Shown piece after piece: positions 12,295-62,240 of a DNA stretch of 64,000 nucleotides (positions are counted from its first letter, which is position 1; each line of letters begins with the position of its first letter). The stretch lies in IMG/VR virus record IMGVR_UViG_3300045988_154277; one strand, written 5' to 3'. The notes below the pieces were generated by a model that searched no databases, was not told the origin of the DNA, and saw only the letters and a program-made list of their open reading frames with translations. A program made the position numbers and the translations under genes. The DNA comes from a virus.

Positions 12295-12314
12295 AGAGTT
12301 ATATATACGTGAAG
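12295..12314 (-). promoter_or_regulatory. early-promoter-like motif (minus strand reads cacgTATATATAActct), 30-50 nt upstream of the HNH-topoisomerase start
   Basis: Member of the conserved motif family agtWatatataYNtSaaa, found only in this orientation. Confidence 0.5.
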
Positions 12315-12334
12315 TTACCACGAAACAAAAAGAG

Positions 12335-12367
12335 AAGGTATGGTGGATTTTGTATCCACCATACCTT
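12335..12367 (-). terminator. terminator-like hairpin between the two HNH genes
   Basis: 14-bp stem aaggtatggtggat / atccaccatacctt. The minus strand is followed by CTCTTTTTGTTTCG. Confidence 0.55.
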
Positions 12368-12372
12368 GTGTG

Positions 12373-13398
12373 TTAGAACGTTCTACTTCCGTATTCGATC
12401 ACATTCCATTTCTTCATAAGTTCTCTCAACGAGTACTTATTCGATGCGATATCCTCCCTTAACAGCATCAGTTCTTCTTTCGTGAATGGGACTCTATTAC
12501 GAGTCAATTGACTATTATGTTCTTCGATCAATTTGCGAACAGAATCACCATTCGAAAATGGAACCTCATCCGTAAATAACGCACGTTGCAACACACTGTA
12601 GTTACCAATATCAACCCAATGTATGATGCTTGATATACGTGCACCTCTACGATACGCATCCCGTATCTTAATAACTGTATCTTCAGACACAAGCTTAGTT
12701 AACGGGATGTGTGCGTTAGGAGATTTCAAGAATCGAATCGGTGTATCCGGTGTGATATCGTACGTTATACCACCAAGAAGATGTGACACTGTAGGAGCAT
12801 TCACATTCATTAGAGTAGATATAGCCGTTACACTATACCCGTGATCGAAGTAAAGAGATCTGATTCTACGTACATCTTCGTTTGTGAAAATGGAGCTTTG
12901 GTGATCTACTCCTGATTGTTTCACATGCAGTTTGGTACCCTCTTTACCCTCAAAACATGCACGCTGTTTCAATATGATCCCATTCACACCACTCAGACCG
13001 ATATTGAACTCTTCAGCAAGAGACTTCATCGATTCTCCTTTATGATAGCGTAAATAGATCTCGATGTCTTTAGAGCGACTGACCATTGTCATACCAGAAT
13101 CAGAAGGATCGTTAGACCAACTGAGATTGGATAACTGACAATTACTGTGATCGTAATCCTTATATCGGACATACAAACCATCACTACCAACAAAGTGACG
13201 TAGCACCAATCTCGATACGGGAGCGGTCTTCCATTCACCTTTGTCATTAACCATGTTCACAAACATGGACAAGCAGTTGTGATTCTTATGCTGCGGTAAA
13301 ATGCGATCTCCCTTTTTACGATGTCTCCTAACACGTCCGAGATTAGACACCTCGTACTTCGAGAATCCTTCTATAGACACCCAACGTTCTTCTTCCAT
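12373..13398 (-). mobile_element. free-standing HNH homing endonuclease, paralogous to the module fused to the topoisomerase
   Basis: GFSKYEVSNLGRVRR (NUMOD4), YKDYDHSNCQLSNLSW (HNH_3-like), and C-terminal HTH repeats matching the fused copy (FTKEELMLLREDIASNKYSLRELM vs TKEELQDLRAKIATHKYTTDELM). RBS is AGGAGG. Confidence 0.75.
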
Positions 13399-13440
13399 GA
13401 TACTATCCTCCTAAGTTAAGTTCTATTCACGTATCATTAC

Positions 13441-13475
13441 AGAGTAATATATACTTCAAATAGGCTTCATTTACA
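13441..13475 (-). promoter_or_regulatory. early-promoter-like motif (minus strand reads TATATATTAC), 45 nt upstream of the HNH endonuclease start
   Basis: agagtaatatatacttcaaataggcttcatttaca. The extended flank is shared with the copies at 48066 and 31298. Confidence 0.5.
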
Positions 13476-13677
13476 GTAAGACGGACCTATCTGGTTGGTT
13501 ATCCCAACCAGATAGGTCACATACAGGAGAGAGTGTGAACGACTAGGAACATCAACCCAAGAACCATTCCTAAAGCTCCCTAAACCAAAAGAAAGGATGG
13601 TGTATCGCTACACCTGTTTCTAGGTCGTTTCACATAGGATGTGCACCGTAGAGCAGAACCCCCTGAAACACAGGGAT

Positions 13678-13685
13678 ATGCTATG
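13678..13685 (+). promoter_or_regulatory. ATGCTATG motif (late-promoter-like), 56 nt upstream of the ATG at 13742
   Basis: The same octamer lies upstream of three other gene starts in the appropriate orientation. Confidence 0.35.
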
Positions 13686-13741
13686 ACAGATCCCTGCTGT
13701 AGCAAGGACAAATTACGGTGAAATCAACTAGGAGATTTAAT

Positions 13742-14197
13742 ATGGCTGAAGAAGTACAATCGTCTCCGATCGATATGTTGTTCCAGGAGTTCAATCAAGC
13801 AACCCGTGAAACGGATCAGATCCGTGATCAGATCATACAACAACTTGTGAACTCGGTGCCATCGATCAATTATGACAAAGACAGCGCACGCGACATCGAA
13901 GTGAAGATGGGTGTGATCAAAACACTTGATGATATCCTGAAGTCGAAGGAGTCATCTAAAGCGAACAAGATCACAACCTATTTGAAACGGAAGGATACTG
14001 AGAATACCGAGAACTATCAGGAAGCTGTTCTGGCAGTGCTTAGTAACTTGGATCCCGAACAGTTTCGCAAAGGTTCTGTTGCCCTTCAGAATAACGTGGA
14101 TGATCAACTTGAACATCAGTTCGAAGCGTCAGGACAATCACCGATCAAACCAGGTGAAACTGAGATCGACACTCCGATGTCAGTGGAAGAAGCATAA
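13742..14197 (+). CDS. hypothetical acidic protein
   Basis: ATG at 13742 with AGGAGA 6 nt upstream (the ORF-track GTG start is at 13718). Ends at the bidirectional hairpin 14205..14240. Confidence 0.5.
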   Translation: MAEEVQSSPIDMLFQEFNQATRETDQIRDQIIQQLVNSVPSINYDKDSARDIEVKMGVIKTLDDILKSKESSKANKITTYLKRKDTENTENYQEAVLAVLSNLDPEQFRKGSVALQNNVDDQLEHQFEASGQSPIKPGETEIDTPMSVEEA

Positions 14198-14953: not shown

Positions 14954-16606
14954 TTAGTTCAAAACGAACTTGTTGAGATCATCGATCTGATAAGTTGAGA
15001 TCTTCGTACCATGCATGCTCTTCAGAGCATCCGTGGTGAAGGTCGATGTGATATCCACTGCATCCAATGCAAGATGCTTCGCATTCTTCTTCGCATAGAT
15101 GTCGCCCATGCACATGTAACAGAGTCCATGTTGGGCTTGACAATACATCGGAGAACGCACCAAACATGTCTTACCGACGAACTTCTCCATGTTCTGTTCT
15201 GTAAGAAGAACCCAGTTCGAACCATCTTGGATATAGGAACCAAGATAACGTCCGATCTTGTACTTCGAGAAATCCACAGTAAGTCCACGTGTGGTGTGAC
15301 AGTCCTGTTCTGATACGGTAAGGTCCTGAAGAACACGGGTGATGCCTTTGGTTAGTGCACCGCCGAGTTTCGTCTGGTCACCACGGTTGAACGAACCTTT
15401 ACGGGTCTCGTTCGCCATAGCAGGCATCGTCTCTGCGGTCATCCCTTCGGACAGAGAGTTCGGAATAAACACGAAGTTCCCAGTTGTCTTGGAGAACTCT
15501 TCCACACCACCGACCGTCAGATACATCTTCTTACGGGAGATGTTGAAGGGTTTGTCACCGAGCGGCCCATAGAATCGCATCACTTCATCATCTTTGAGAT
15601 AGTTCTTATCCATCGCGATCAAGGTATTCTCGATCTCCATGATGACGTTCGGATCGTTCAACTTATCCTTGTACTTCTCCATCAACTCTTGTTTCACTTT
15701 CCTCACATTCGGATCTGTGGTAAGTGATTTACGAGTATAAGTCGGTACACAGAGTTCAGTGAAGTGTCCGATGAAGTAGAGATCGTTCACATATTGCTTA
15801 TATGCGGATACCGGGATAGAACCGTCCAACATACCTTTGGCAACGATCGTATCGATATAACCGAGATCAAATACGGAGTTCTGATAAGAGATCTTGTCTT
15901 GGAATGGATGAACCAGAAGAAGGTAGTTCAATAAGAACCGACCTACGGTGGTAATCATCTCTTCCTTGCAGTTGATGATCTCACCGGGATTCAGTTGGAA
16001 CGTATCGATCTCACCGAATGCTCTCTGGATCCCGTTGTCCAGGTAGTTCAATGTGAACGAATATGTCTCCTGATCGATATCCGAGACATACACCAGACAG
16101 GACTGACTGCTACCCACAACGGATGCCAAGAACACATCTCCTTCTTGCAAAACACATTTCTGGAAGTGTGTTGCGTTGTAATTCGCAGAGGTGTAGTAAT
16201 CGAAGAGCTCTTGGTTCGTCTTGTTGTAGAGGTCTTTGCTGAACTGATCTGCTTCTTCTTTCTTCTCTGGAGAGAGAGCAAGGTAGTTCCTATACTGGAA
16301 CAGAAGATGGAAAAGACTATCGTTGAACGGATACACCAGTGCGATTTGTCGCATCGCGATCTGTTTCAAAACTTCATCGTCTGTGATATCTTGCTCTTGC
16401 AGAGGAATATACACCGCATCTTCCGGAGGTGTCTTCAATGTAACACGAACAGAATGACGTTCCGGTGTGATCGCTTCGCTCTCATACAGAGGGAAAACAG
16501 GACGTCCACCAACCTGTGTCATGATGTCGATCAAAAATGCACGTTCTAACAGACGTCTCTGGTACTTGATCAAAAACTCTTTCTTATGGATCGGAAGTTC
16601 CATCAC
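14954..16606 (-). CDS. multisubunit RNA polymerase beta-prime subunit fragment (catalytic loop region to the second zinc-binding motif)
   Basis: [42 protein letters not shown] aligns with the E. coli beta-prime bridge helix ([38 protein letters not shown]). [20 protein letters not shown] aligns with [50 protein letters not shown] aligns with [26 protein letters not shown]. Confidence 0.75.
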   Translation of the reverse strand: [550 protein letters not shown]

Positions 16607-17634: not shown

Positions 17635-17664
17635 CGTTGTCTCCTATTTTGGCATAGGATGTGC

Positions 17665-18147: not shown

Positions 18148-18192
18148 AGATTCACCTCTTACGTTCACAGCATGTTGTAGACAGAAAAGATA

Positions 18193-18233: not shown

Positions 18234-20090
18234 TTACATCTGTCGGAACTGTGATTCCGTCACGATCTGGATCCCGTAGCGTCTGGCTTTCACCAGTTTC
18301 GTACTTTCATCCTCTTGTTCTTCATCCGGAACAACGAGTAATGAGAGATCTTTTGTGACAGCAGGTACTGGTTGATAACCTTTGGATCTGGCATAAGCTT
18401 CCAACTCAGATCTTGGGGCACTCATTTTACCTGTGAAACAGATCGTCATGTCGAAGTTCTGACCAACACTGTTGAGATTGGTGCAGAGCATCAGACAGAG
18501 AGCCAGATTCTGAACATTCTCAGAATAGGACAACCATCTCACAAGGGACAATCCTGTTTCACCAAACGATTGAAACTTCTCTAAAGCGTGTTCCGTTGAA
18601 AGCGTTGTAAGATCTTCGATCGAACAAACGGTCAACAGCATCGCTGCGTTAGCTTTGCTGATCCTCGGGATCCCTAACGCTGACAGCAGCATCGCAGGTG
18701 TTGCTGTCCGAAGAGCGTTCTGGATCGAAGCATACAACTTTGTCGCTACCTTAGGTGATACGTCCGCGTAAGAACATAGTCCTTCCAAGGAGATAGACAG
18801 AAGTTGATGCAACTGCAACACCTTGTTGGATACCAGGTTCATAAGTACTACCTTCCCGAAACCATCCAGCTTCAGCTCCTTCGCTGCTTTGCGAAGGATC
18901 GCCAATGCAACACCAGGACAATCAGGGTTGGTGCAAACCAACTCTACATCTTCCTGATGAGTCGGATGTCCACACGATGGGCAGGTATGTGGTATCATCA
19001 GTTCACCTTGGTTACGGACATGATCTTCCACACAGATGTGAGGAACAACATCACCCGCTCGTTCCACCTTGACGATATCTCCGAGTCTGAAATCATTCTT
19101 GATCACATACGCCAGGTTGAACAACGATGCTTGCTGTATCGTGACATTCCCGATCTTCACAGGATCGATGATGCCTTTCGGAGTGATACTCCGCATCCCA
19201 ACATTCCACTCGATCCCACGTAAGGTAGAAGTCTGAGACTCATTGGCGAACTTGAACGCCATCATCCCTCTTGGATGGTGTTGTGTTGCACCAAGTTCTT
19301 GAATCTTGGATATATCACCAAGTTTGATCACCATCCCATCCGTCGGATAGTTTAGTTCTTCCACATCCAAGACAAGTTTATCCCACTCTTCTGGATCCTC
19401 CAACATATTCAACGTCATGATCGTTGAATAGAAGGTGTAATCCACGAATGTCAGGATCTTCTTGCCTTTCAGATCAGGAAGTGGTTCTTTGGATGCCAGG
19501 ATGCCCGCAACCGTATTCCTCTGTGTATTATATTTTTCACCATTCTGTTTCAGGATCTTACCAGAGAGGAAGTACTCTTCGAAGTCCTCATCTGTGATGA
19601 TGATCTCACCATAGAACGGTGTGTTCAGAAGAAGCAACTGTATTGCTTTGTTAGGATGTCTCATCGCCTGTAACAAAACAGTTGAAGTTGTCTTTACTTC
19701 GATCAGAGGCAACTTGCTAGTGATATCCTCTCCGACATGTCCATCTCCTCTGGTGCTCAGTTGCCAACCACGAGTTGTGTAGACCAGTTTACCTGCGATC
19801 CCATCATACTTCGGTTGCACTACGAACGTGCTGTCTTCTCGTCCAACACTCTTGCACCACTTGACGATCTCTTCGTGCGTGTAGCGTTTGTCCAGAGAGA
19901 GCATCGGTGGATTGTGGATCACAGAGCCTTTCTCTCCTCCGATATAGGTGAGTCTTGGATCATCAGGATCCAAGACACGAAGTTGTTCGATCAACTTATC
20001 ATACTCCTGATCGGAGATGATGGGTTGGTGATCGGTCCAATATTTCACATTGGCTTCATCGATCTTCTTCCGTAAAGTGTCAATGTCCAT
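18234..20090 (-). CDS. ligA: NAD-dependent DNA ligase
   Basis: KYDGIAG (KxDG adenylation motif), ERAGDVVP, the zinc finger CPSCGHPTHQEDVELVCTNPDCPG, and a C-terminal BRCT-like region. RBS is AAGGAG. Confidence 0.9.
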   Translation of the reverse strand: MDIDTLRKKIDEANVKYWTDHQPIISDQEYDKLIEQLRVLDPDDPRLTYIGGEKGSVIHNPPMLSLDKRYTHEEIVKWCKSVGREDSTFVVQPKYDGIAGKLVYTTRGWQLSTRGDGHVGEDITSKLPLIEVKTTSTVLLQAMRHPNKAIQLLLLNTPFYGEIIITDEDFEEYFLSGKILKQNGEKYNTQRNTVAGILASKEPLPDLKGKKILTFVDYTFYSTIMTLNMLEDPEEWDKLVLDVEELNYPTDGMVIKLGDISKIQELGATQHHPRGMMAFKFANESQTSTLRGIEWNVGMRSITPKGIIDPVKIGNVTIQQASLFNLAYVIKNDFRLGDIVKVERAGDVVPHICVEDHVRNQGELMIPHTCPSCGHPTHQEDVELVCTNPDCPGVALAILRKAAKELKLDGFGKVVLMNLVSNKVLQLHQLLSISLEGLCSYADVSPKVATKLYASIQNALRTATPAMLLSALGIPRISKANAAMLLTVCSIEDLTTLSTEHALEKFQSFGETGLSLVRWLSYSENVQNLALCLMLCTNLNSVGQNFDMTICFTGKMSAPRSELEAYARSKGYQPVPAVTKDLSLLVVPDEEQEDESTKLVKARRYGIQIVTESQFRQM

Positions 20091-20167: not shown

Positions 20168-20208
20168 TTGAGTATACTGGTAAGTGGATACCAGTATACT
20201 CAGGAAGA

Positions 20209-22110: not shown

Positions 22111-22656
22111 TTACAGTTTCCATCTCCCTTTTCCCATAACAGATTGCACGATCGACCTGTGCAGTTTAGAATTATCAGGAAGATGCATTCCGATCTCGTA
22201 CGGGATCGTGATACTGAACGCAGTATCGTCATGTATCCCATGTTCCGGACCATGAGACGGGATGGACACTCCCGTTACACGATAACAGTAGTTTGAATCG
22301 TCATACGTTATATCGGATGCTGTTGTGTGGAACATCAGATACTTCGGTTCCAGAGAGGGTATTTGTTCGAGACAGTTCCTCAAGACCTCTGTATCCACAA
22401 GAACATAGTGACCGAAACCATCATGGAAGCACCTGAAATCAATTAAGATCTGAGCTGCTTGCAGGCAGTAATACGTGTACTTCCGGTAGATCGTATCGAA
22501 GAAATCATCATTGTGTTTCAGACCCAACGCACGTGTGATCTTCTGGTTTTGCCATCCGTAAGCATCCACATATGCGATCTGGTTCATTTTCTCAACCAGA
22601 CGTTTCAGTTCTTGGATCTTATCCGAATCAGCATTCGTGTTAGAACAAGTGCTCAT
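22111..22656 (-). CDS. hypothetical protein
   Basis: Start refined to MSTCSN at 22656, with a GGGAGTGG RBS. Confidence 0.4.
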   Translation of the reverse strand: MSTCSNTNADSDKIQELKRLVEKMNQIAYVDAYGWQNQKITRALGLKHNDDFFDTIYRKYTYYCLQAAQILIDFRCFHDGFGHYVLVDTEVLRNCLEQIPSLEPKYLMFHTTASDITYDDSNYCYRVTGVSIPSHGPEHGIHDDTAFSITIPYEIGMHLPDNSKLHRSIVQSVMGKGRWKL

Positions 22657-22927
22657 CGTAACCACTCCCTTCCAAGTCATCATTTAGACTTAATTCACCT
22701 TCGATGTAGTCGTTGTCGATCCCTTCGTCCAACTCCACATACTCAGGCTGCAGGTTATCATCCTCCCTGATGATCTCAGGGGTATCATCTGACGATGCGC
22801 TGATCTCCACCATCTGATCCGGTACTTGTTCACTAGAACAAGTAGGACAGAACATGTAGTCAACGACATCGTCGAACTCCTCTGTGTCATACCAGCGATG
22901 ACACTTACAACATTTGAAATAGCTCAT
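22640..22927 (-). CDS. small zinc-ribbon protein with a polyacidic C-terminal tail
   Basis: CCKCH..(17)..CPTC, then a tail rich in D/E (DDTPEIIREDDNLQPEYVELDEGIDNDYIEGELSLNDDLEGSGYDE). Paralogous in architecture to 28500..28751. Confidence 0.5.
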   Translation of the reverse strand: MSYFKCCKCHRWYDTEEFDDVVDYMFCPTCSSEQVPDQMVEISASSDDTPEIIREDDNLQPEYVELDEGIDNDYIEGELSLNDDLEGSGYDEHLF

Positions 22928-23714
22928 GTATCTTTCCTTTCGGGATCCAAGTCATCCCTTTTGTTAAGTACGTCATACCGGTAATATTCGCATCTACGAA
23001 CCATTTGTGGCTGATGTCGATACTGGATGATGATCGTTTACCATCCGCTCTTTTGAATACGATCTTGAGTCGATCCATCCGGTCATCCCACTTAAGAGAG
23101 TAGTGTTTGCGTGTCTCATCATCGAGCGACTGCATGATGATATCACAGCAGTCGCTCTCAGAGTAGTGTGATGTACTGTTTTGATAATACCAGATGTAGA
23201 AGAAGCGTTGGAGATCCTCCTCCAACGCACCATAGTGTTTGGTCCACTCTCCAGTCGTATCACGACTGGGTTGACTATGTCCCAACTCACACAACTTCTT
23301 GAAATGATGCGATATATGCTCCAAATAGTTGTCGTATCTATCAAGATGTAAATACTGATTCACATCTTCGATCTGAACACGATGCCCGACAACGCTGTTG
23401 TCTTTCGTGTAGAGTTCACAATAAACGAAACGATGATCTCGTTCATACTTACGTGACTCTTTATACGGTTGGATGAAACACTTGCAGGTACCACTCACAG
23501 GATCCCAATCGACGCTGGTTATGATATCGTACTTCGGGTTGTCATCTTGGAACGCATCTACGATGATGGATAGGAAAGTGTGATGTAAACACACTTCCAT
23601 TTCCATCTCATCTTTACACTCCGGAAGTGGACTGCCTTCACATGCAATGCATGCTTTGACAACCACATCTTTCAAAGCTTGTAACGTTTTGACGATCTTC
23701 TGTTCTCTTGTCAT
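22905..23714 (-). CDS. hypothetical protein, possibly a distant member of the tandem paralog family
   Basis: RKYERDHRFVYCELY and LKIVFKRADGK weakly resemble family motifs (DRHHRNCNHYLY, VQFKEGRG). RBS is AAGGAG. Confidence 0.4.
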   Translation of the reverse strand: MTREQKIVKTLQALKDVVVKACIACEGSPLPECKDEMEMEVCLHHTFLSIIVDAFQDDNPKYDIITSVDWDPVSGTCKCFIQPYKESRKYERDHRFVYCELYTKDNSVVGHRVQIEDVNQYLHLDRYDNYLEHISHHFKKLCELGHSQPSRDTTGEWTKHYGALEEDLQRFFYIWYYQNSTSHYSESDCCDIIMQSLDDETRKHYSLKWDDRMDRLKIVFKRADGKRSSSSIDISHKWFVDANITGMTYLTKGMTWIPKGKIHELFQML

Positions 23715-23750
23715 AGTTTACTCCTTCGTGCATAATGTTAAGTTTGACGT

Positions 23751-23780
23751 ATAGAGCGGGATGATACTATCCCGCTCTAT
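23751..23780 (-). terminator. hairpin between paralog-region genes
   Basis: 11-bp stem atagagcggga / tcccgctctat. Confidence 0.4.
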
Positions 23781-27773: not shown

Positions 27774-27780
27774 GATGTTG

Positions 27781-31256: not shown

Positions 31257-31297
31257 ATGACTATTATATTTACTCTACTAGATCCCATCTATCAACA

Positions 31298-31332
31298 AGT
31301 AATATATACGTGAAATAGACTTCAGTTACACT
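31298..31332 (-). promoter_or_regulatory. early-promoter-like motif upstream of small ORF 31047..31256
   Basis: aagtaatatatacgtgaaatagacttcagttacac. Confidence 0.45.
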
Positions 31333-31380
31333 AAAAGAGTAAAAGAAGAAGACTAGGGTGACTAGTCTTCACTATCTAAG

Positions 31381-32720: not shown

Positions 32721-32861
32721 ACAGTCTCCTTCTTAGGAAAGTTGTAGAACAACGTCACTCTCCACAACGACCTAACACTAGAGTGTGGTAGCACTCTAGT
32801 GTTAGGGTCCTTTACTATTACTGGAGTCGTGATAAGAAGTCATCGCTCTACTAGTATCATA

Positions 32862-32900
32862 AGAGTTATATATATTCGAAATATTTTGAACTACACTTTT
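32862..32900 (-). promoter_or_regulatory. early-promoter-like motif; 33 nt identical to the copy at 62208..62240
   Basis: agagttatatatattcgaaatattttgaactacactttt. Confidence 0.45.
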
Positions 32901-35539: not shown

Positions 35540-35589
35540 ATTCACCTCTAGTTGTAATATTCAGTCGTATAGGTTGAAACTCTTTCATT

Positions 35590-35613
35590 GAGTAATATAT
35601 GCTTGAAAGAACG
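35590..35613 (-). promoter_or_regulatory. early-promoter-like motif about 50 nt upstream of the 700-aa ORF start
   Basis: gagtaatatatgcttgaaagaacg. The minus strand reads caTATATTACtc. Confidence 0.45.
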
Positions 35614-35629: not shown

Positions 35630-35637
35630 ATGCTATG
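35630..35637 (+). promoter_or_regulatory. ATGCTATG motif, 30-45 nt upstream of the chaperonin-operon start
   Basis: tcATGCTATGctt. Confidence 0.35.
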
Positions 35638-45843: not shown

Positions 45844-47187
45844 TTATAGTTTTGATTTGATCTGTTTTATCACGTCCCGAACCCAACGACGATCTTCTTC
45901 GTTTAAGTATTCACGGTAATATTTCTGTTCTATCTTCTCTACCAGATCCTCTTCCTTTTTTTGGTTATTTGGGGCTTTGTCCCATTGCGCTAAGAACAGG
46001 TGATAACACTCGTGTACGATAGTTCCCATAAAACTATCTATTTGATCCTTTGTGGCGTTACCGGATGGACCCCACATGTTACTGTACAATCTGTAATTGA
46101 CATATATGTCTACAGAGCCAGACATGTTGTTCTTAGCATAACACCAACCGTACGGAGGGCGTTCTTCAGCAGTATCGTCGCTAAGACCCCACGTCATAGG
46201 TCTACGATTTGTTATAATTACATTTCGGACAGTAACAGATCCTCCAAAGAGGTGCTCCATCTTCTTTAGGATATGTGATGGGATCTTAACAGTAACCTCT
46301 ACTGGTATATCTCGATTAAACAATCTATCTATATCCAATAGATACGATACACCGATAGAGCATAGTTCAGTCGATGCTCGTGATATGGTTGTGACTATCA
46401 GTATAACTTGTTTGACACCATCCTGTATCCCGACATCCATAATGTCATCTCTAAAGATGTCATTCGCTTGTTTTGATATACCTAATATCGCCTCTTTGAA
46501 TTCTTCTTTCGTCATATCGTCTGATATTGTTAACTTAAATTCTTCCAATGCGAATACTAGGGTATCTGAAAGGAGTGCTATGTGACCAAGATCACTTGCT
46601 ATTGATCTTGCCAGATCACGAACATCTCCACGGCGATAACCAACAACTCCCTTTTGTTTTTCACAAAGCTGATGTGCTTTATCAACGTAACTATCTAGTT
46701 TTCGTTTAAAAGCATCAAATGGTGTTGATTTACATCTAGTACGCATGAACACATGGGCATCAGTGAATACTTCTGCTACCTCATCCATATATTTATACGG
46801 TATTAGTATAACACCATCTCTAGCTTGAGACATAAGTAAGAAAAGATCACTCATACTCTTCTTTACGAAATCAGAGTTACTCGTCTTAGGTGTTTCTTTG
46901 ATACCAAGTACTTTACACACCTTATGCCGAATAGCACCGAAGAACTTCTTAACAGCAGCAATCAGTTGGTTGATTTTCTCTTTCAACCAACTGATGAACT
47001 TACTGATCGCTTCTTTCGCTTGATCAACTAAGCTCTCTTCACCTATTAGTTCACGGAAGTGTTCTGTGTAACCATACTTGTTATAGTAGTTGACCACAAC
47101 GCATGCGTTGTGATACACATCGTAACCTTGTATGATTTGGTTACAGATAGTGTTGATATCGTTTAGGTATTTTAATTCAGTTTCCAT
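45844..47187 (-). CDS. HExxH zinc-metallopeptidase-like protein; paralog of 20209..21558
   Basis: GTIVHECYHLFLAQWD, WCYAKNNMSGS, and the N-terminal FISWLKEKINQLI helix. Confidence 0.5.
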   Translation of the reverse strand: METELKYLNDINTICNQIIQGYDVYHNACVVVNYYNKYGYTEHFRELIGEESLVDQAKEAISKFISWLKEKINQLIAAVKKFFGAIRHKVCKVLGIKETPKTSNSDFVKKSMSDLFLLMSQARDGVILIPYKYMDEVAEVFTDAHVFMRTRCKSTPFDAFKRKLDSYVDKAHQLCEKQKGVVGYRRGDVRDLARSIASDLGHIALLSDTLVFALEEFKLTISDDMTKEEFKEAILGISKQANDIFRDDIMDVGIQDGVKQVILIVTTISRASTELCSIGVSYLLDIDRLFNRDIPVEVTVKIPSHILKKMEHLFGGSVTVRNVIITNRRPMTWGLSDDTAEERPPYGWCYAKNNMSGSVDIYVNYRLYSNMWGPSGNATKDQIDSFMGTIVHECYHLFLAQWDKAPNNQKKEEDLVEKIEQKYYREYLNEEDRRWVRDVIKQIKSKL

Positions 47188-47995
47188 GTTCTAGATCCTC
47201 TTTAAGTAATTCATCCCAATAAGTATCGGTTGCGATGTCGTTGTCTTTTACCATAGCCTCGTATGGGATAGACCTGATCAGCTCCAGTTGCTCTTTGGTC
47301 AACAGTTCTTTGGAACAGTGCCAGCTCCGAAAGTAGTTGAAACGTGCTTTTGTGTGAAACTTCATATAGAGCCAGACAGTGTTGTTGTCTTCTGCTCTTT
47401 CGATGACCAGACGGTCACCTTCTTTGAGTCGTGCAAATTGCTCCAGGAACGCTTTGCAGTTGCAGAAACTCAGCTCACCGGCACTTACCCGGATCATCTT
47501 GCATTGCCATTCCAGAATCTCAAGCCTCCGAAGCTGCTCTCCCTCCAAATTGGATTTATGAAAAGAATGGGTTTCCGTGATGGCTTCGGGACCATTCATC
47601 AAATATCGTCTTACGACGATAGTCACCGTGTTATAGTCTTCTTTGAAAGATACCAGATCAACACGCTGATGATCCGCCACATACAACAGTTGATAACAGA
47701 GCGATTCAAACTCACTCTGTTCCGCACGTTTGTTTGCCAGCTTAAGTTGCTCTTCCTTGATTCGGACGATCCGTTCTGCGTTCAGATGTTTCTTTTGGAA
47801 TGTATATGCAACATCATAGGTGGGTAAGCTGATACCATCATGTTCTTTCCGAACGATGATCTCGAACTTGTCATCGAACTCCTGTATGCTGGTGATATAG
47901 ATGTGCTTGATCATATCATTCTGAGTTCGATCAATGTCGCGGATAACTGTGTCGAACAGTTTAGTAGACGAGGGTTTTTCAGAATGGTAAAACAT
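47177..47995 (-). CDS. hypothetical protein
   Basis: 272 aa with an AAGGAG RBS. Lies 70-100 nt downstream (leftward) of promoter-like motif 48066..48099. Confidence 0.45.
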   Translation of the reverse strand: MFYHSEKPSSTKLFDTVIRDIDRTQNDMIKHIYITSIQEFDDKFEIIVRKEHDGISLPTYDVAYTFQKKHLNAERIVRIKEEQLKLANKRAEQSEFESLCYQLLYVADHQRVDLVSFKEDYNTVTIVVRRYLMNGPEAITETHSFHKSNLEGEQLRRLEILEWQCKMIRVSAGELSFCNCKAFLEQFARLKEGDRLVIERAEDNNTVWLYMKFHTKARFNYFRSWHCSKELLTKEQLELIRSIPYEAMVKDNDIATDTYWDELLKEDLEHGN

Positions 47996-48065
47996 GCGTG
48001 ACTCCTTTATGATTGTTCTTATTGGATGTTTGATGGTTATATCAATTCGATGATATACTTCAATT

Positions 48066-48099
48066 AGTTATATATACTTCAAAAGACCTTCATTTACAC
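48066..48099 (-). promoter_or_regulatory. early-promoter-like motif about 70-100 nt upstream of ORF 47177..47995
   Basis: agttatatatacttcaaaagaccttcatttacac. Confidence 0.5.
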
Positions 48100-48120
48100 C
48101 TGCTATACTGGACATAAAGA

Positions 48121-48156
48121 CTGTACACGTGATGGTTTTATCCATCACGTGTACAG
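48121..48156 (-). terminator. hairpin downstream of the acidic repeat gene
   Basis: 15-bp stem ctgtacacgtgatgg / ccatcacgtgtacag. Confidence 0.5.
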
Positions 48157-48195
48157 TAGGGTAGACCTCTAATAGTCCTATACTAGAACCTTAGA

Positions 48196-50326: not shown

Positions 50327-51292
50327 TCAGTTTACTGTGAGTATATTGTTCCACGTATCGATAAGCATACCGCTCATCTGTGTTACATAGGATTGAAAGA
50401 CGACCGCACATTTGAACACGTAGCTGGCACGTAAGCTCTTGTTGTTGAGCTCGTATTGCAGCTGTTGTGCACCTGCATCATCTCCCAATGCGATGTATTT
50501 ATCGATCGTACGGATGGAAGCGGTTACATCGTTCTCCAACGAGTTCTTCAGATCGTTCAGTTCAGCAGCTTGTGTACAAAGCATCGCAACACGATTGGTG
50601 ATCTGTTTCAGATGCTCCACGGACCAGTCACTGCTCTTCATCGTCATACGACCTGCTCTGATCTTGTAAGGATTCACTTCATAGATCACTCCGTCTTTGA
50701 CCGTGTATCCGAATTGGGTGATCCCTGTTTTGAAGGTAGCAGCATCTTGGATCGAAGGAACTTTAGACAACTCCATCACGTCGTGATAGAGGATCTCGAG
50801 ACTACTGATCACTTCAACCGACTCCTTATAAGTAGGAAGATAAAGATCGACAGTCTGCAACTTCAGATCAGCGTCGTTGGATCGATTCTTATCGAACTCT
50901 CTCTGCAGGTTGTAGAGAGTCGTCCTCGTTCTGGAGTTCGTATCGAACATCCGTTTGAAGAACGCTACGATGCTAGCCCACAGATTCATGAAGAAGTTCT
51001 TAAGTGACAGAAGTGCATTCCGGAACATCGATGACAGTCCTTCCTGAGAACTGTTCATCAGTTTCTCACTTCCCAGAGCATCTCGGAGCACGATATCCTT
51101 CATACCCGCATAATCGATCAAAGAGTGGATATTGAAGGTCTTCAAGATCTCATCCTGAATGGCGTGGAAGTTGTTTACAACAACACGTTCCAAGTCATCC
51201 ATAGTGGAGATCTGAGAAGCGAGTTCTTCGATCGACCAGTTGCAGATAGGAGGAGGCGCTGGGAATGCTTGTTTCAAAGCGTTCGTGATCAT
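50327..51292 (-). CDS. hypothetical protein
   Basis: 321 aa. First of four coupled genes 50327..54351. Confidence 0.45.
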   Translation of the reverse strand: MITNALKQAFPAPPPICNWSIEELASQISTMDDLERVVVNNFHAIQDEILKTFNIHSLIDYAGMKDIVLRDALGSEKLMNSSQEGLSSMFRNALLSLKNFFMNLWASIVAFFKRMFDTNSRTRTTLYNLQREFDKNRSNDADLKLQTVDLYLPTYKESVEVISSLEILYHDVMELSKVPSIQDAATFKTGITQFGYTVKDGVIYEVNPYKIRAGRMTMKSSDWSVEHLKQITNRVAMLCTQAAELNDLKNSLENDVTASIRTIDKYIALGDDAGAQQLQYELNNKSLRASYVFKCAVVFQSYVTQMSGMLIDTWNNILTVN

Positions 51293-53205: not shown

Positions 53206-54285
53206 TTAGAATCTGGGACTCATACCCTGGGAGAAAGTCTGCATGATCTCTGCGAGATTGAAGCTGTCCTTCCCCTTGGCTCCCACTTTATTCAACATCT
53301 GGAACGTGTAAGTTCCCTTCACGTCGATGCCGTTGAAATACATATCGACGGTTCCACCCATCACGTCGACAACAACCACGAAGATCGCCATCGTCTTCAA
53401 CATGAAACTCTGACGATAACCTTTGTCTGCAAAGTTCGCACCGACCTCTTTGCAAGCTTCGGTAAAGGTTGGTTTGTCCATGATGATCATGGAGTTCGCC
53501 AAGTTTCCGGATGTGGGTTTCATACCGATCAGGCGAAGTGCCCAGTTGAAAAGCTTATTGTGCTGGTTGGTAAGGATCGCAGCCAGAACACCGGACTTGT
53601 CTTCCTTCAGGAGTTTTTCCTGCTTCTTGAGCAGGTCTCTGGAGAGCATGAAGTCGTTCCAGAAACTGATCTCCTTCGCCTCCACCTGTTTCCAACGAAC
53701 GGACATCGGCGGATGGAAGTTGATGTTCATGAAACCTTTGCAGATGTTGGAAGACAAGATGATCGGGATCAGCTGGACATACACGTATACTTTAAACGTG
53801 TTCACCTTGCCGCCCCCTTCAAGCGTAAGATCGACCTCCAAAAGACGTCCGGTAACCAGTCGCTGGCTGTCCTTCTCCAGGTCCACCACTTGTGACTCCA
53901 TAGAGACGTTCATCTCTTTGATCGTGGAGTTCAGAGTCTCCTGACCGAAGTCATCCGCGATGATCGTGACGGTATCTTGAAGGGTTTCTGTGGCGATGAT
54001 ACCGTACAGTTCTTTCACCGTCTTTCCGCCAACCACTACATTTTGCATATTCAAAGCGGTCATGATGTAGCTAGCATAAAGCTGGTTCAGGGTACCGAGC
54101 AACGGTAACGCGATGTCGTCTTGAGCGACACTTTCCTGCAGATACACTCGACTGATGATGTTCGCAGGTTTGTTCATTTGTGTCAGCGATACTGTCTGCA
54201 TCTCGTTGACCTTATTCACACCTTGTGCGACGATCTTCAAGATTTCAGACAGTCCTGCTGGCAGCAGATCTGGGATAGAAGCCAT
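53206..54285 (-). CDS. hypothetical protein
   Basis: Start refined to MASIPDLL at 54285 (GTGAGGA RBS). The ORF-track version extends to 54351. Confidence 0.45.
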   Translation of the reverse strand: MASIPDLLPAGLSEILKIVAQGVNKVNEMQTVSLTQMNKPANIISRVYLQESVAQDDIALPLLGTLNQLYASYIMTALNMQNVVVGGKTVKELYGIIATETLQDTVTIIADDFGQETLNSTIKEMNVSMESQVVDLEKDSQRLVTGRLLEVDLTLEGGGKVNTFKVYVYVQLIPIILSSNICKGFMNINFHPPMSVRWKQVEAKEISFWNDFMLSRDLLKKQEKLLKEDKSGVLAAILTNQHNKLFNWALRLIGMKPTSGNLANSMIIMDKPTFTEACKEVGANFADKGYRQSFMLKTMAIFVVVVDVMGGTVDMYFNGIDVKGTYTFQMLNKVGAKGKDSFNLAEIMQTFSQGMSPRF

Positions 54286-54344
54286 ATGAAATATCCTCAC
54301 TTTGCGGGATAAAATACCCCTTGATTTTGTGGATTCAATGCAGC

Positions 54345-54353
54345 ATAGCATGT
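54345..54353 (-). promoter_or_regulatory. ATGCTATG motif on the minus strand, 60 nt upstream of the refined start at 54285
   Basis: The minus strand reads gacATGCTATGctg. Confidence 0.35.
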
Positions 54354-60248: not shown

Positions 60249-60259
60249 ACGAATGATAT

Positions 60260-60299
60260 CGTAAGTACGTGTAGAGAGATAACCCTCTACACGTACTTA
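60260..60299. terminator. bidirectional hairpin after the 1442-aa gene
   Basis: 16-bp stem gtaagtacgtgtagag / ctctacacgtacttac. Confidence 0.55.
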
Positions 60300-60323
60300 C
60301 CTTTTACAATTTACCATGTGACA

Positions 60324-60713
60324 TCATTCATCGTTAGGCTCCTGTTGTGGACGAGTGATCCGTCCTGGTGAGTGGATCGCCAAGATCTGTGGGATCTTAA
60401 CCAGGGCACCTTCTGGTAACTGGGAGATCTGTTCATCCATGATCTTGGATACTTGGTTCCCAAGCTCTTCACAACGGATCCGTTGTCCGTTGGTGACATC
60501 GATCATATCACCACTGGTGGTGATATAGTTGTTCTCTTTGAGATAATCCATCACTTCATCAGATACATCGAGAGATGGGAGTGGTTTGACACTGTCGGTC
60601 AGTGTCATCAATGCACCCAGTAGTTCACCTGCTGGGATATTCTTCTCTCCGTCTTGGAGGAAGAACTGCTGCACGGTAACAGCAGAGGGTTTAATATTGA
60701 CATCAGAGGACAT
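60324..60713 (-). CDS. hypothetical protein
   Basis: 129-aa ORF. Confidence 0.4.
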   Translation of the reverse strand: MSSDVNIKPSAVTVQQFFLQDGEKNIPAGELLGALMTLTDSVKPLPSLDVSDEVMDYLKENNYITTSGDMIDVTNGQRIRCEELGNQVSKIMDEQISQLPEGALVKIPQILAIHSPGRITRPQQEPNDE

Positions 60714-61200
60714 AGGGTTTTCCTTTCGGGTCGTTGGGATGATCGTTTTCCATAAAGTTCAGTGAGATACGTGGCACCATGGAGAAGGTGAGGTGTGCAA
60801 GTTCTTCTCCTTGGTGAATCGTCTGTACGTTACGACTGATATTGTGAATGATCAACAAGATCTCACTGTGATGAGTAGCAGGAAGTACGGTTGGTGCAAC
60901 CAACACGATCCCTTTTGACTCAACGAGATATGGACTGGAATGCAAATTGATTTGAAGCACCAGTTTGGAATACTTGGAAGTAGTATTACCTTCCTTAGTG
61001 GTTTCAACGATGTTGGGAGTCATAAGACGGATCCCCGTCGGTACAGGGGCGTAGACTCCTGGGTTGATCGGAAGTTTCTTCTGGCAGAGAAGAGCGAAGA
61101 TCGAAGCATCTTCGGACAACTTCAATGGAAGATATCGAAAGTCAGTTCCAATGGTGGTGAATGGAACCGTGGTATTGAGTTTGTCATATTTTCTGGACAT
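60703..61200 (-). CDS. dUTPase-like beta-barrel protein (degenerate motifs)
   Basis: VPTGIRL, ILLIIHNIS and GEELAHLTF weakly resemble dUTPase motifs (IPTGI, VILFNHS, GDRIAQLIF). Catalytic residues are not confirmed. Confidence 0.35.
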   Translation of the reverse strand: MSRKYDKLNTTVPFTTIGTDFRYLPLKLSEDASIFALLCQKKLPINPGVYAPVPTGIRLMTPNIVETTKEGNTTSKYSKLVLQINLHSSPYLVESKGIVLVAPTVLPATHHSEILLIIHNISRNVQTIHQGEELAHLTFSMVPRISLNFMENDHPNDPKGKPYVL

Positions 61201-61302
61201 GATGTCTCCTAACGTTGTGTTCTGGTATAGGCTGGTTGATGCTACACAACAAAAAAGAAAATACAGAGTTAGGGGTAACCTAACTCTGTACCGAAGAACG
61301 AC

Positions 61303-61704
61303 TTAGTCGTTATCTTCTTCCTTGTCATCCTCCGGATCGTCCTTGAAGAGATTCTTCGACTTGGCTTCCCAATACTCGGACTCTTCCTCGTACTTCTTAG
61401 TACGAGCTTTGGACTCTTCGACAGAGGCTTTGACTTCCTGGTCACGGAGTTCAAGGCGTTTCACGTCCATCTTCATCTGGTGTTCGATTACCTTATCGAC
61501 CTTCGCATCGGCGAAGGTGAAGATGGCTTTCAACAAACCGACCGCACCGTCGGTCGAGATCTTCACGTTCTCATCGGTGATGTCGGCATGTGCAGACATC
61601 TTGAGGTTCTTCAAGGTGATACCCTTGAATTCCACTTCTCCGATGGTGAACTCGAAGTTGGCGGTGCTGTTGTTGCGGACGTTGTTGGTGGTTTCGTTGC
61701 TCAT
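61303..61704 (-). CDS. hypothetical protein with an acidic C-terminus
   Basis: 133-aa ORF. Confidence 0.4.
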   Translation of the reverse strand: MSNETTNNVRNNSTANFEFTIGEVEFKGITLKNLKMSAHADITDENVKISTDGAVGLLKAIFTFADAKVDKVIEHQMKMDVKRLELRDQEVKASVEESKARTKKYEEESEYWEAKSKNLFKDDPEDDKEEDND

Positions 61705-62202
61705 GGTTTGATTCCTTTTGTTAAGGGTTGTTGGGTTGAGCTAAGATATGGAGAAGAACGAAGGTTCGTATCGTTGTCACTAACACAACGATCTTCTCCT
61801 TCGAATCTTCGACTTGTTTACTACACGAATGACTTTTGTACAAAACTAGACTATGTAAACACACTATGAGAGAGGTTAGTGTCTCATATGTGTTAAATGA
61901 ACGTTACCGACCGACTCTTGTCGGTATGTACAACAATACGAATTAGTTCGTCGGATATTCGGTACCACAACGAACTTCGTACTGTATTACTGCAACTGCA
62001 CGCTGCATCGCGTCAAGAACATCTTGTCCTTCACGCAGGAACTGGTTTAACAGTTCGTAATAACGTTGATGAAACGTCTTCACGTAGTCACCTCCTTTCT
62101 TGATGTTAGTGTACAGAGTGTAGATGCGTCAACATCTACACTCTGTACACGGTTATCAGTTTGACACATCTCTAATTAGACATGTCTTCGGTATTATCAA
62201 TA

Positions 62203-62240
62203 AAGTAATATATATTCGAAATATTTTGAACTACACTTTT
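62203..62240 (-). promoter_or_regulatory. early-promoter-like motif (duplicate of the 32862 module)
   Basis: aagtaatatatattcgaaatattttgaactacactttt. Downstream (leftward) lie the hairpin 62108..62149 and a small minus-strand ORF with an AGGAGGTG RBS (approximately 61946..62086). Confidence 0.45.

What the first reader, a model, noticed from the sequence alone, without database searches (positions are those of the whole stretch)
12295..62240. Conserved AT-rich element, eight strong copies in one orientation, reading TATATATTAC on the minus strand upstream of leftward genes; candidate early promoter of a phage RNA polymerase
The element occurs at eight intergenic sites (12295, 13441, 20142, 31298, 32862, 35590, 48066, 62203), plus a weaker ninth copy at 1171, always with the same polarity. 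Its plus-strand consensus is roughly aGT(A/T)ATATATAC(G/T)T(G/C)AAA(T/A)AG(a)CTTCAtTTACA. Read on the minus strand it becomes (t/c)TCAAG/cgaaTATATATTAC. Every strong copy sits 40-150 nt upstream of the refined start codon of a minus-strand gene: the HNH-topoisomerase ORF, the HNH endonuclease, ligA, the 700-aa ORF, 47177..47995 and several small ORFs. The TATATA core is palindromic, but the flanks are not, so the uniform orientation is meaningful. It also matches the predominance of leftward genes. From memory, phiKZ-like jumbo phages have early promoters with an AT-rich TATATTAC-type consensus recognised by a virion RNA polymerase. This window also encodes a multisubunit RNAP beta-prime fragment and a chaperonin, which fits that phage class.
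Basis: partly seen in the sequence, partly recalled or inferred. Interest (0 to 1): 0.7.

Follow-up and report, generated by a model that had tools for sequence, protein, structure and literature searches.

The report
Jumbo-phage early promoters, phiKZ type
The repeated AT-rich element is real and is almost certainly the set of early promoters read by the phage's own virion-carried RNA polymerase in an uncultivated, human-gut relative of phiKZ-like jumbo phages; this is a well-known kind of signal, so it is useful for annotation but not surprising.

Summary
A weight matrix built from the sites finds nine copies at 22-32 bits, all on the minus strand, against 0.065 expected. The ninth, at 8335, was missed and lies inside a conserved gene.

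The minus-strand consensus is TTT-ca.g-TATATAT(T/A)AC-N4-TGA. Five sites also carry a distal GTGTAA/GTGTAGTTCAAA element.

Eight sites are intergenic, 33-144 nt upstream of a ribosome-binding site and start codon, and often directly follow a terminator hairpin. All nine are kept in a 96%-identical relative. Five stand out as conserved islands in a relative with only 61-71% protein identity.

Across the window and related loci, 38 of 40 sites face a gene start, against 13 of 41 when read in reverse.

The sequence closely matches phiKZ early promoters. The window also encodes a homologue of phiKZ gp80, a virion RNA polymerase subunit. Sigma-70-type sites are depleted.

Verdict: a new member of a known kind. 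Polymerase identity and timing are inferred, not shown.

Side finding: a second motif, ATGCTATG, lies upstream of the other gene blocks and resembles the phiKZ late TATG promoter.

The parts
8328..8354 (-). Early-type promoter P8335 (TCTCACGTATATATTAC-GTAT-TGA). It lies inside the conserved ORF 7901-8662.
   Evidence: Scores 23.7 bits. The ORF is conserved end to end with the distant relative, at 48% aa identity. The 17-nt identical run over the motif is the longest in the gene. The site is present in both relatives.
12291..12317 (-). Early-type promoter P12298, 33 nt upstream of the ATG at 12264 (HNH endonuclease fused in frame to topoisomerase II).
   Evidence: Scores 29.8 bits. GGAG plus ATG lie downstream. 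Orthologous sites sit upstream of the topoisomerase gene in both relatives.
13437..13480 (-). Early-type promoter P13444 with distal CTGTAAATGAAG element, 45 nt upstream of the HNH endonuclease gene 12373-13398.
   Evidence: Scores 32.0 bits. AGGAGG plus ATG lie downstream. The site is conserved in contig 142450.
20139..20165 (-). Early-type promoter P20146, 55 nt upstream of the NAD-dependent DNA ligase gene 18234-20090.
   Evidence: Scores 22.2 bits. The ligase domains are identified. The core is conserved upstream of the ligase orthologue in the distant relative.
31292..31335 (-). Early-type promoter P31299 with distal GTGTAACTGAAG element. It heads an ~11-kb run of small leftward genes (31256 down to 20209).
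   Evidence: Scores 31.2 bits. The site is conserved in contig 142450. The downstream genes are largely non-homologous between close relatives.
32858..32900 (-). Early-type promoter P32865 with distal GTGTAGTTCAAA element. It is followed by a 16-bp leader hairpin and then a 49-aa ORF (32571-32720).
   Evidence: Scores 29.4 bits. Start-codon distance is and the leader hairpin. The same promoter subtype occurs in 21 metagenome loci.
35585..35611 (-). Early-type promoter P35592, 52 nt upstream of the ATG at 35539 of the divergent family-B DNA polymerase gene.
   Evidence: Scores 28.9 bits. PF20286 matches at E=3.6e-105. The site is conserved in several related contigs.
48060..48103 (-). Early-type promoter P48067 with distal GTGTAAATGAAG element, 71 nt upstream of gene 47177-47995.
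   Evidence: Scores 26.3 bits. It forms a conserved island in the alignment with the distant relative.
62198..62240 (-). Early-type promoter P62205, nearly identical to P32865. It is followed by a leader hairpin and a 46-aa ORF (GTG at 62083).
   Evidence: Scores 29.7 bits. It forms a conserved island in the distant relative. The leader hairpin shows one compensatory change in a close relative.
12335..12367 (-). Terminator-like hairpin ending the HNH gene, immediately upstream of P12298.
   Evidence: 14-bp stem followed by a T-run.
13484..13518 (-). 15-bp perfect hairpin immediately upstream of P13444.
20169..20202 (-). Terminator-like hairpin upstream of P20146.
   Evidence: 14-bp stem.
31348..31370 (-). 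Terminator-like hairpin upstream of P31299.
48120..48157 (-). Terminator-like hairpin upstream of P48067.
   Evidence: 16-bp stem.
14954..16606 (-). Gene for a homologue of phiKZ gp80 (virion RNA polymerase beta-prime C-terminal piece). This is a subunit of the enzyme inferred to read the motif.
   Evidence: phrog_2962 matches at E=4e-97. tblastn hits PHIKZ080 at 31% identity, E=3e-50. Gp80 is a virion RNA polymerase subunit (PMC10612078).
6669..6676 (-). Second-class candidate promoter (GTC-ATGCTATG-CTTAAA), 30 nt upstream of the SD and ATG of gene 5199-~6640.
   Evidence: An orthologous copy is present in the distant relative.
13678..13685 (+). Second-class candidate promoter (ATGCTATG) upstream of the plus-strand gene 13718-14197. 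It points away from P13444.
35630..35637 (+). Second-class candidate promoter (GTC-ATGCTATG-CTTAAA) upstream of the plus-strand block starting at 35669. It points away from P35592.
54344..54351 (-). Second-class candidate promoter (ATGCTATG) at the head of gene 53206-54351.
62252..62259 (+). Second-class candidate promoter, one-mismatch form ATGGTATG, 18 nt upstream of the SD and ATG of a plus-strand gene. It points away from P62205.
   Evidence: The orthologue in L013 has the exact ATGCTATG.

Best explanation
The nine elements are promoters of the phiKZ 'early' type in an uncultivated jumbo phage that carries its own multisubunit RNA polymerases.

Inferred mechanism, by analogy with phiKZ and AR9:
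- The polymerase packed in the virion enters the cell with the DNA.
- It recognises the extended AT-rich box TATATAT(T/A)AC, about -16 to -7, together with a T-rich element near -21 and, at some sites, a further element near -30 to -40.
- It starts transcription leftward at the conserved purine of the TGA, 6-7 nt after the box.

Each promoter sits after the terminator of the preceding unit. The units drive:
- two HNH endonucleases, one of them fused to topoisomerase II;
- DNA ligase;
- the DNA polymerase;
- gene 47177-47995;
- runs of small, fast-evolving genes.

Shown here: the motif, its statistics, its position and orientation, its conservation, and its sequence match to phiKZ early promoters.

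Inferred, not shown: the start site, the early timing, and the identity of the polymerase.
For: **Motif statistics.**
- Nine hits of 22-32 bits, all on one strand, against 0.065 expected.
- Core with up to 1 mismatch: 12 matches against 2.45 expected.

**Position.**
- Eight of nine sites fall in the ~6% of the window that is intergenic.
- They lie 33-144 nt upstream of SD plus start codon.
- Five directly follow strong hairpins.

**Orientation.** 38 of 40 sites in the window plus related loci have SD, start and ORF downstream. The figure is 13 of 41 for the reverse reading and 36% for random positions.

**Conservation.**
- All nine sites are kept in contig 142450.
- Five are conserved islands in diverged intergenic DNA of contig 163688.
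- 34 further sites occur in 134 kb of related metagenome loci.

**Match to known promoters.**
- In the first 50 kb of phiKZ, all seven TATATTAC copies are intergenic and on the plus strand, 34-72 nt upstream of plus-strand genes (positions against the gene table).
- Their context is TTCAAAC-ATATTTAAACAG-TATATTAC-TAACTTGA, which aligns with the window's TTCAAAATATTTCGAATATATATTAC-TTTATTGA.
- The published descriptions agree. They report an extended -10 box plus a T-rich element upstream of -19 (PMC8244752) and conserved -10, -20 and -30 regions (PMC11512511). They place the start site 6 nt after the element (PMC5312081), and a table of related consensus sequences is in PMC7058600.

**Polymerase.** A homologue of virion RNA polymerase subunit gp80 is encoded in the window (PMC10612078).

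**Host promoter architecture.** Sigma-70-type sites are fewer than in shuffles (71 against ~115 expected). None coincides with a motif site on the minus strand.

**Variable genes.** Variable, non-homologous genes cluster in the motif-headed units, as is typical of phage early regions.
Against: - No transcript data exist, so start sites, timing and the polymerase are all inferred.
- In phiKZ the DNA polymerase gene has no such promoter in front of it. Here it does, so the temporal programme may differ.
- All copies in each genome examined are on one strand. A clean test with sites pointing both ways in one genome could not be made.
- Only one polymerase subunit is in the window. No nuclear-shell (chimallin) gene was identified in the window; only the 648-aa ORF at 38301-40247 was tested for this.
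- The 8335 copy is inside a gene, so it could be kept partly by protein constraint.
Confidence: 0.82

Rival explanations
1. The elements are ordinary host sigma-70 promoters. TATATT would serve as the -10 box and the host polymerase would transcribe these genes at the start of infection.
For: TATATT matches TATAAT at 5 of 6 positions. Many phages use host polymerase for their early genes.
Against: - No site passes a sigma-70 scan on the minus strand, because there is no -35 hexamer at 16-18 nt.
- The strongly conserved positions include the terminal AC, the TTT at -14 to -16 from the core end, and the TGA after the core. None of these is part of a sigma-70 promoter.
- Sigma-70-like sites are depleted in the window.
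- Related phages transcribe independently of the host enzyme (PMC7598289, PMC8244752).
Confidence: 0.06
2. The elements are phage-specific promoters but belong to a middle or replication class. They would be read by the non-virion polymerase, or by the virion enzyme with an added factor, rather than being immediate-early signals.
For: - The motif precedes the DNA polymerase, ligase and topoisomerase genes. In phiKZ these are not typical early-promoter genes.
- No TATATTAC lies in front of phiKZ gp50, the DNA polymerase.
Against: - The sequence matches the phiKZ early class, not the middle class (a TACT motif near -22 preceded by an A-rich repeat) or the late class (TATG at the start site) (PMC8244752, PMC7598289).
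- A separate TATG-type motif exists in the window in front of the other genes.
Confidence: 0.09
3. The elements are not promoters. They would be repeated boundary sequences, for example recombination or homing sites that flank mobile gene cassettes, or binding sites for a DNA-binding protein.
For: - Homology breaks between close relatives fall within about 130 nt of four motif copies.
- Two copies precede HNH homing endonuclease genes.
- Near-identical 33-nt copies are scattered in several genomes.
Against: - A pure boundary element would not need a fixed orientation and spacing to SD plus start codon. That spacing holds at 38 of 40 sites.
- It would not be expected to match the experimentally mapped phiKZ early promoter either (PMC8244752).
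- Promoter function and a secondary role in cassette exchange are compatible, as in T4-type PeSL elements (PMC2839356, PMC4122927).
Confidence: 0.03

Closest known systems
phiKZ early promoters (TATATTAC class), attributed to the virion RNA polymerase gp178/gp149/gp180/gp80
   Same: - AT-rich core ending in TTAC.
- TTT about 14-16 nt before the core's last base.
- A TTCAAA-like element further upstream.
- TTGA or TGA 5-8 nt after the core.
- Intergenic position, 34-72 nt (phiKZ) against 33-144 nt (here) upstream of start codons, pointing the same way as the gene (PMC8244752).
- A gp80 homologue is encoded here.
   Different: - The core has one extra TA step (TATATATTAC) and tolerates A at the third-last position.
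- The purine after the core is one base closer in most copies.
- Here the motif also precedes the DNA polymerase, ligase and topoisomerase genes.
- The proteins are only 25-35% identical to those of phiKZ-group phages.
- No start site has been mapped.
Predicted or mapped early promoters of 201phi2-1, OBP, N1M2 and EL
   Same: - The consensus TTTRARR-BTATATTAC-DWHD-GTG (201phi2-1) and TTTCARRYAKATATTAT (N1M2, OBP) share the T-rich element, the purine-rich linker, the AT core and a downstream G-containing triplet (PMC7058600).
- Conserved -10, -20 and -30 regions are reported for 201phi2-1 (PMC11512511).
   Different: The linker and distal elements differ in sequence. In 201phi2-1 the mapped early promoters precede only hypothetical genes.
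AR9 early promoters, AAATATATATTAT-(6N)-G
   Same: - Long TATATAT core with a purine start about 6-7 nt downstream.
- One AR9 early promoter sits with a gene inside an intron of a late gene (PMC5312081). This parallels the promoter-plus-HNH units seen here.
   Different: AR9 has uracil-containing DNA, its core ends in TTAT rather than TTAC, and it is a distant lineage with a Gram-positive host.
T4-type PeSL cassettes (early promoter plus stem-loop)
   Same: Hairpin-plus-early-promoter modules border variable gene sets. Homology breaks between close relatives lie next to them (PMC2839356, PMC4122927).
   Different: The phage family and the polymerase are unrelated. Recombination at the modules is not demonstrated here.
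phiKZ late promoter (-3)TATG(+1), read by the non-virion polymerase (comparison for the second motif only)
   Same: ATGCTATG ends in TATG. It lies 18-58 nt upstream of start codons of the genes that lack the AT-rich motif (PMC7598289, PMC7618050).
   Different: The motif here is at least 8-10 nt long (C-ATGCTATG-C), whereas the phiKZ consensus is only 4-5 nt. Function is untested.

Membership tests
phiKZ-type early promoter (virion RNA polymerase) | Highly conserved AT-rich box of about 10 nt of the TATATTAC type | tested here: met
   TATATAT(T/A)AC is nearly invariant in the nine sites. It aligns directly with seven phiKZ TATATTAC sites.
phiKZ-type early promoter (virion RNA polymerase) | T-rich element about 10 nt upstream of the box, with further upstream conservation (the -20 and -30 regions) | tested here: met
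   TTT lies at -16 to -14 relative to the core end, with information content of 0.9-1.6 bits per position. A distal GTGTAA or TTCAAA element is present at five sites. Literature: PMC8244752, PMC11512511.
phiKZ-type early promoter (virion RNA polymerase) | Intergenic position, upstream of and pointing the same way as genes or operons | tested here: met
   Eight of nine sites are intergenic. 38 of 40 sites face SD plus start, against 13 of 41 in reverse.
phiKZ-type early promoter (virion RNA polymerase) | The genome encodes a split multisubunit virion RNA polymerase | tested here: met
   A gp80 homologue is at 14954-16606 (PMC10612078). Only this one subunit lies in the window.
phiKZ-type early promoter (virion RNA polymerase) | Primary transcript 5' end about 6 nt downstream of the box | not testable with these tools
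   Only a conserved purine (TGA) at +5 to +7 is seen. No RNA data are available.
phiKZ-type early promoter (virion RNA polymerase) | Transcripts appear in the first minutes of infection, without new protein synthesis and independently of the host polymerase | not testable with these tools
   The phage is uncultivated and is known only from metagenome contigs.
Sigma-70 host promoter | -35 TTGACA-like hexamer 16-18 nt upstream of a TATAAT-like -10 box | tested here: not met
   No minus-strand sigma-70-type hit coincides with any of the nine sites. Such hits are depleted overall.
T4-type PeSL mobile regulatory cassette | Conserved early promoter plus stem-loop flanking variable genes and serving as a recombination junction | tested here: inconclusive
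   Hairpin-promoter modules are present and homology breaks lie near four copies. No junction inside a module was demonstrated.
phiKZ-type late promoter (non-virion RNA polymerase); second motif only | TATG overlapping the start site, upstream of late or structural genes | tested here: inconclusive
   - ATGCTATG occurs 5 times against 1.53 expected.
- 19 of 23 copies in 241 kb are followed by SD plus start within 80 nt, against 14% at random positions.
- Copies are conserved in the distant relative.
- The start site is unknown.

The most novel reading that the evidence does not exclude
The hairpin-plus-early-promoter modules may do more than promote transcription. They could also be the exchange points at which early gene cassettes are swapped in this gut jumbo-phage lineage. 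The cassettes would include HNH homing endonucleases that carry their own promoter copy. This would be a phiKZ-group counterpart of the T4-type PeSL cassettes.

Separately, the window's second motif, C-ATGCTATG-C, may be an unusually long and well-defined version of the poorly defined TATG promoter of the non-virion polymerase.
Probability: 0.3. Interest if true: 0.5.

Novelty: new member of a known kind. Interest (0 to 1): 0.3.

Why it matters
The motif gives a ready transcription map for an uncultivated jumbo-phage lineage that occurs in a human gut metagenome. It shows which genes are likely switched on first: replication enzymes, homing endonucleases and many small variable genes.

It also shows that the promoter specificity of the virion polymerase has stayed almost unchanged between phages whose proteins are only 25-35% identical.

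The accompanying ATGCTATG motif could help define what the second, non-virion polymerase recognises. That remains unclear even for phiKZ (PMC7618050).

None of this overturns current understanding.

Tried and rejected
- **Near-identical phage search.** Megablast of 20 kb against 50,697 phage records found nothing. Only protein-level relatives at 25-35% identity exist there.
- **Source contig.** Exact-protein look-ups for two window proteins found no record. The window's own contig was therefore not recovered. The closest sequences are 95-98% identical contigs.
- **Genome-wide scan.** A true whole-genome scan could not be done. Loci are limited to 10-kb flanks, and a degenerate core pattern would give thousands of chance hits in the collections. 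I used about 10 kb beyond the left edge, 42 kb of a distant relative and 134 kb of metagenome loci instead. No genome showed sites on both strands.
- **The 1171 copy.** Rejected at 1.3 bits.
- **Plus-strand reading.** Reading the palindromic core as a sigma-70 promoter on the plus strand gives a few 9/12 matches. I rejected this reading because three sites (8335, 12298, 20146) have only leftward genes on both sides, and such matches are commoner in shuffles.
- **Cross-scan of phiKZ.** The window's matrix applied to phiKZ gave 5 hits against 4 expected at a low threshold, which is uninformative. The exact TATATTAC listing was informative.
- **Nuclear-shell protein.** The 648-aa ORF at 38301-40247 is not recognisably one.
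- **RNA families.** Rfam and tRNA scans found nothing.
- **GTGTAGTTC.** The enrichment (6 against 0.42 expected) is explained by two promoter distal elements plus one hairpin, not by a separate element.

Full report

Yes. GTAATATATA with at most one mismatch occurs 12 times against 2.45 expected, and 11 of the 12 are on the plus strand.

Read on the minus strand and aligned on the last C, the sites give TTT-ca.g-TATATAT(T/A)AC-N4-TGA. A 23-nt weight matrix finds nine hits of 22-32 bits, all on the minus strand. The next best hit scores 13.9 bits. First-order Markov simulations of the window give 0.065 hits above 15 bits. Left-out sites still rank in the top 11 of 128,000 positions. An unbiased count of 8-mers shared between intergenic segments is headed by pieces of this motif.

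The ninth, at 8335-8354, was missed. I do not count it.

**2. Anatomy and position**

- Coding sequence covers about 94% of the window, yet eight of the nine sites are intergenic.
- From the last C of the core to the start codon the distances are 33, 45, 55, 42, 144, 52, 71 and 121 nt.
- All but one of these starts (31256) has a clear ribosome-binding site.

The genes served are:
- an HNH endonuclease fused in frame to topoisomerase II (start 12264);
- a second HNH endonuclease (12373-13398);
- NAD-dependent DNA ligase;
- the divergent family-B DNA polymerase (start 35539);
- gene 47177-47995;
- three small ORFs.

Strong hairpins lie just upstream of five sites: 12335-12367, 13484-13518, 20169-20202, 31348-31370 and 48120-48157. 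The layout is therefore terminator, promoter, leader, gene. Terminator-like hairpins are enriched overall, with 95 found against about 42 expected.

Five sites carry a further upstream element, GTGTAA(A/C)TGAAG or GTGTAGTTCAAA, about 24-36 nt before the core's end.

**3. What kind of genome is this?**

The window encodes:
- a divergent family-B DNA polymerase (PF20286, E=3.6e-105);
- a homologue of phiKZ gp80 (phrog_2962 at E=4e-97; tblastn to PHIKZ080 at 31% identity, E=3e-50);
- a chaperonin-like protein;
- virion proteins.

Gp80 is a subunit of the phiKZ virion RNA polymerase (PMC10612078). Identity to all deposited phages is only 25-35% at protein level, and there is no nucleotide match.

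Close relatives exist only as metagenome contigs:
- IMG/VR contig 3300045988_142450 (197,673 bp), 96% mean identity over the 84% of the window that aligns, with indels;
- a human-gut contig of 279 kb, 95-97.5% identical;
- a more distant 361-kb contig, 3300045988_163688, with 61-71% protein identity.

**4. Conservation**

All nine sites are present in contig 142450.

In the distant contig, the five orthologous intergenic or genic regions available each keep the core, and two keep the distal element. These stand out as islands in otherwise diverged sequence. The five are the sites upstream of the topoisomerase gene, the ligase gene, the 47995 gene and the 62083 ORF, plus the 8335 site.

The 8335 site is special because it lies inside ORF 7901-8662. 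That ORF is conserved over its whole length (48% identity). The 17 identical nucleotides over the motif are the longest identical run in a gene that is 58% identical overall. Five consecutive codons are kept exactly, where about half of the codons for conserved residues are kept elsewhere in the gene. This points to selection on the DNA sequence itself, that is, an internal promoter. The evidence for that is modest.

A metagenome scan for the P32865/P62205 subtype returned 21 loci totalling 134 kb. These contain 34 matrix hits. Within each locus, every hit is on the same strand.

**5. Orientation test**

The test covers the window sites plus the metagenome sites. In the motif's orientation, 38 of 40 evaluable sites have a ribosome-binding site, a start codon and an ORF of at least 35 aa within 230 nt. 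Read in the opposite direction the figure is 13 of 41, and for random positions it is 36%.

Many of these sites are orthologues, so they are not independent events. The bias is nonetheless clear.

A weakness remains. Every genome piece examined has all its sites on one strand, so there is no within-genome example of sites pointing both ways.

**6. Comparison with known promoters**

In the first 50 kb of phiKZ, TATATTAC occurs seven times. All seven are on the plus strand, intergenic, and 34-72 nt upstream of plus-strand genes. One of these genes is gp54, which has a reported early promoter (PMC8244752).

The phiKZ contexts are:
- TTCAAACATATTTAAACAGTATATTAC-TAACTTGA
- TTTAAGATCTATATTAC-TAATTTG

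They align with the window's:
- TTCAAAATATTTCGAATATATATTAC-TTTATTGA
- TTTGAAGTATATATAAC-TAATTGA

The literature describes:
- an extended -10 box plus a T-rich element upstream of -19 (PMC8244752);
- conservation at -10, -20 and -30 (PMC11512511);
- a start site 6 nt after the element in phiKZ and phiR1-37, and AAATATATATTAT-(6N)-G in AR9 (PMC5312081);
- related consensus sequences for 201phi2-1, OBP, N1M2 and EL (PMC7058600).

The review PMC7598289 states that such a motif can be found bioinformatically in every polymerase-encoding jumbo phage, and that it proved to be the early promoter wherever it was tested. The window's motif is thus a new member of this class.

**7. Rivals**

- **Host sigma-70 promoter.** This is unlikely. 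No site passes a sigma-70 scan on the minus strand. The conserved AC, TTT and TGA positions are not sigma-70 features. Sigma-70-type sites are depleted, with 71 found against about 115 expected.
- **Middle-class promoter.** This cannot be excluded from sequence alone. The motif here precedes replication genes, and phiKZ's DNA polymerase gene has no TATATTAC in front of it. Even so, the sequence matches the early class, not the middle or late ones.
- **Pure boundary or recombination element.** This would not explain the fixed spacing and orientation to gene starts.

**8. A second motif found in passing**

The genes that lack the AT-rich motif are often preceded by ATGCTATG, frequently in the form GTC-ATGCTATG-CTTAAA.

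- There are five exact copies against 1.53 expected, all next to a gene start and pointing the same way as that gene.
- Three one-mismatch copies lie in front of the RNase H gene, the 343-aa gene upstream of the polymerase subunit, and a plus-strand gene at 62278.
- Orthologous copies are conserved islands in the distant relative.
- Over 241 kb, 19 of 23 copies are followed by a ribosome-binding site and start within 80 nt, against 14% at random positions.
- In four divergent intergenic regions the AT-rich motif points left and this motif points right.
- It ends in TATG, the phiKZ late consensus in which G is the start site (PMC7598289). That consensus is described as too short to explain specificity (PMC7618050).

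This fits a two-polymerase programme and supports the main reading. It is untested.

**9. Gene turnover around the promoters**

Stretches of the window with no homology in contig 142450 total about 10 kb. Almost all lie within the motif-headed units. Breaks fall at +11 from P12298, +66 from P48067, +128 from P31299, and 17 nt upstream of P32865.

The first HNH gene (11110-12264) is inserted between P12298 and the topoisomerase gene's own ribosome-binding site and ATG (11109). It is absent from both relatives. The second HNH gene carries its own promoter and terminator and is absent from the distant relative.

This resembles T4-type promoter/stem-loop cassettes (PMC2839356, PMC4122927). No junction inside a module was shown.

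**10. Verdict**

It is a new member of a known kind: phiKZ-type early promoters, attributed to the virion RNA polymerase. Start sites, timing and the polymerase are inferred by analogy.

Interest is modest at 0.3. The value lies in annotating an uncultivated human-gut jumbo-phage lineage and in the longer TATG-type motif that came with it.

Noticed in passing
window 6669-6676(-), 13678-13685(+), 32928-32935(+), 35630-35637(+), 54344-54351(-). One-mismatch copies at 17653-17660(-), 18166-18173(-), 62252-62259(+).: A second promoter-like motif, C-ATGCTATG-C (often GTC-ATGCTATG-CTTAAA), lies 18-58 nt upstream of the start codons of genes that lack the AT-rich motif. There are 5 exact copies against 1.53 expected. 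Copies are conserved at orthologous places in the distant relative. In related DNA, 19 of 23 copies precede an SD plus start codon. It resembles the phiKZ late (-3)TATG(+1) promoter but is longer.
   Followed up: partly
window 8328-8354, inside ORF 7901-8662: A strong copy of the early-type motif lies inside a conserved 253-aa gene. The 17-nt identical stretch shared with a relative at 58% nucleotide identity is the longest in the gene. This suggests an internal promoter kept by selection at synonymous sites.
   Followed up: partly
window 11110-12264 and 12373-13398: Two paralogous HNH endonuclease genes (28% identity). The first is inserted between promoter P12298 and the topoisomerase II gene's own SD and ATG (11109). 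It reads through in frame, giving a 1201-aa ORF, and is absent from both relatives. The second has its own promoter (P13444), an upstream hairpin and a terminator, and is absent from the distant relative.
   Followed up: partly
window 22131-31662, 45848-48001, 32901-33389: Stretches with no homology in the 96%-identical contig 142450 cluster in the units headed by the early-type motif. Breakpoints lie within about 130 nt of four promoters. This resembles the promoter/stem-loop cassette shuffling of T4-type phages.
   Followed up: partly
window 32765-32805 and 62100-62145 (minus strand leaders): The near-identical promoters P32865 and P62205 are each followed by a long perfect hairpin (16-19 bp) between the predicted start site and the SD of a small ORF. 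A close relative shows one compensatory base-pair change. The distant relative has different hairpins at the same place. Their role (attenuator, stabiliser, or terminator for the opposite strand) is unknown.
   Followed up: partly
L021, L028, L029 (contig UONW01000014.1, 279,059 bp) and other loci L010-L030: The phage lineage of this window occurs in a human gut metagenome assembly at 95-97.5% nucleotide identity to the window, and in several other ENA assemblies. No isolate is close. The strong use of AGGAGG-type ribosome-binding sites may help narrow down the host.
   Followed up: no
window 48196-50340: A GC-rich stretch (54% GC) is open on both strands (699 aa on minus, 706 aa on plus). The terminator at 48120-48157 and promoter P48067 just downstream favour the minus-strand ORF. 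Neither ORF has any family match.
   Followed up: no
whole window: Sigma-70-type promoter matches are fewer than in shuffled sequence in all four sections (26 against 35, 23 against 44, 18 against 30, 4 against 6). Terminator-like hairpins are about twice as frequent as expected.
   Followed up: no
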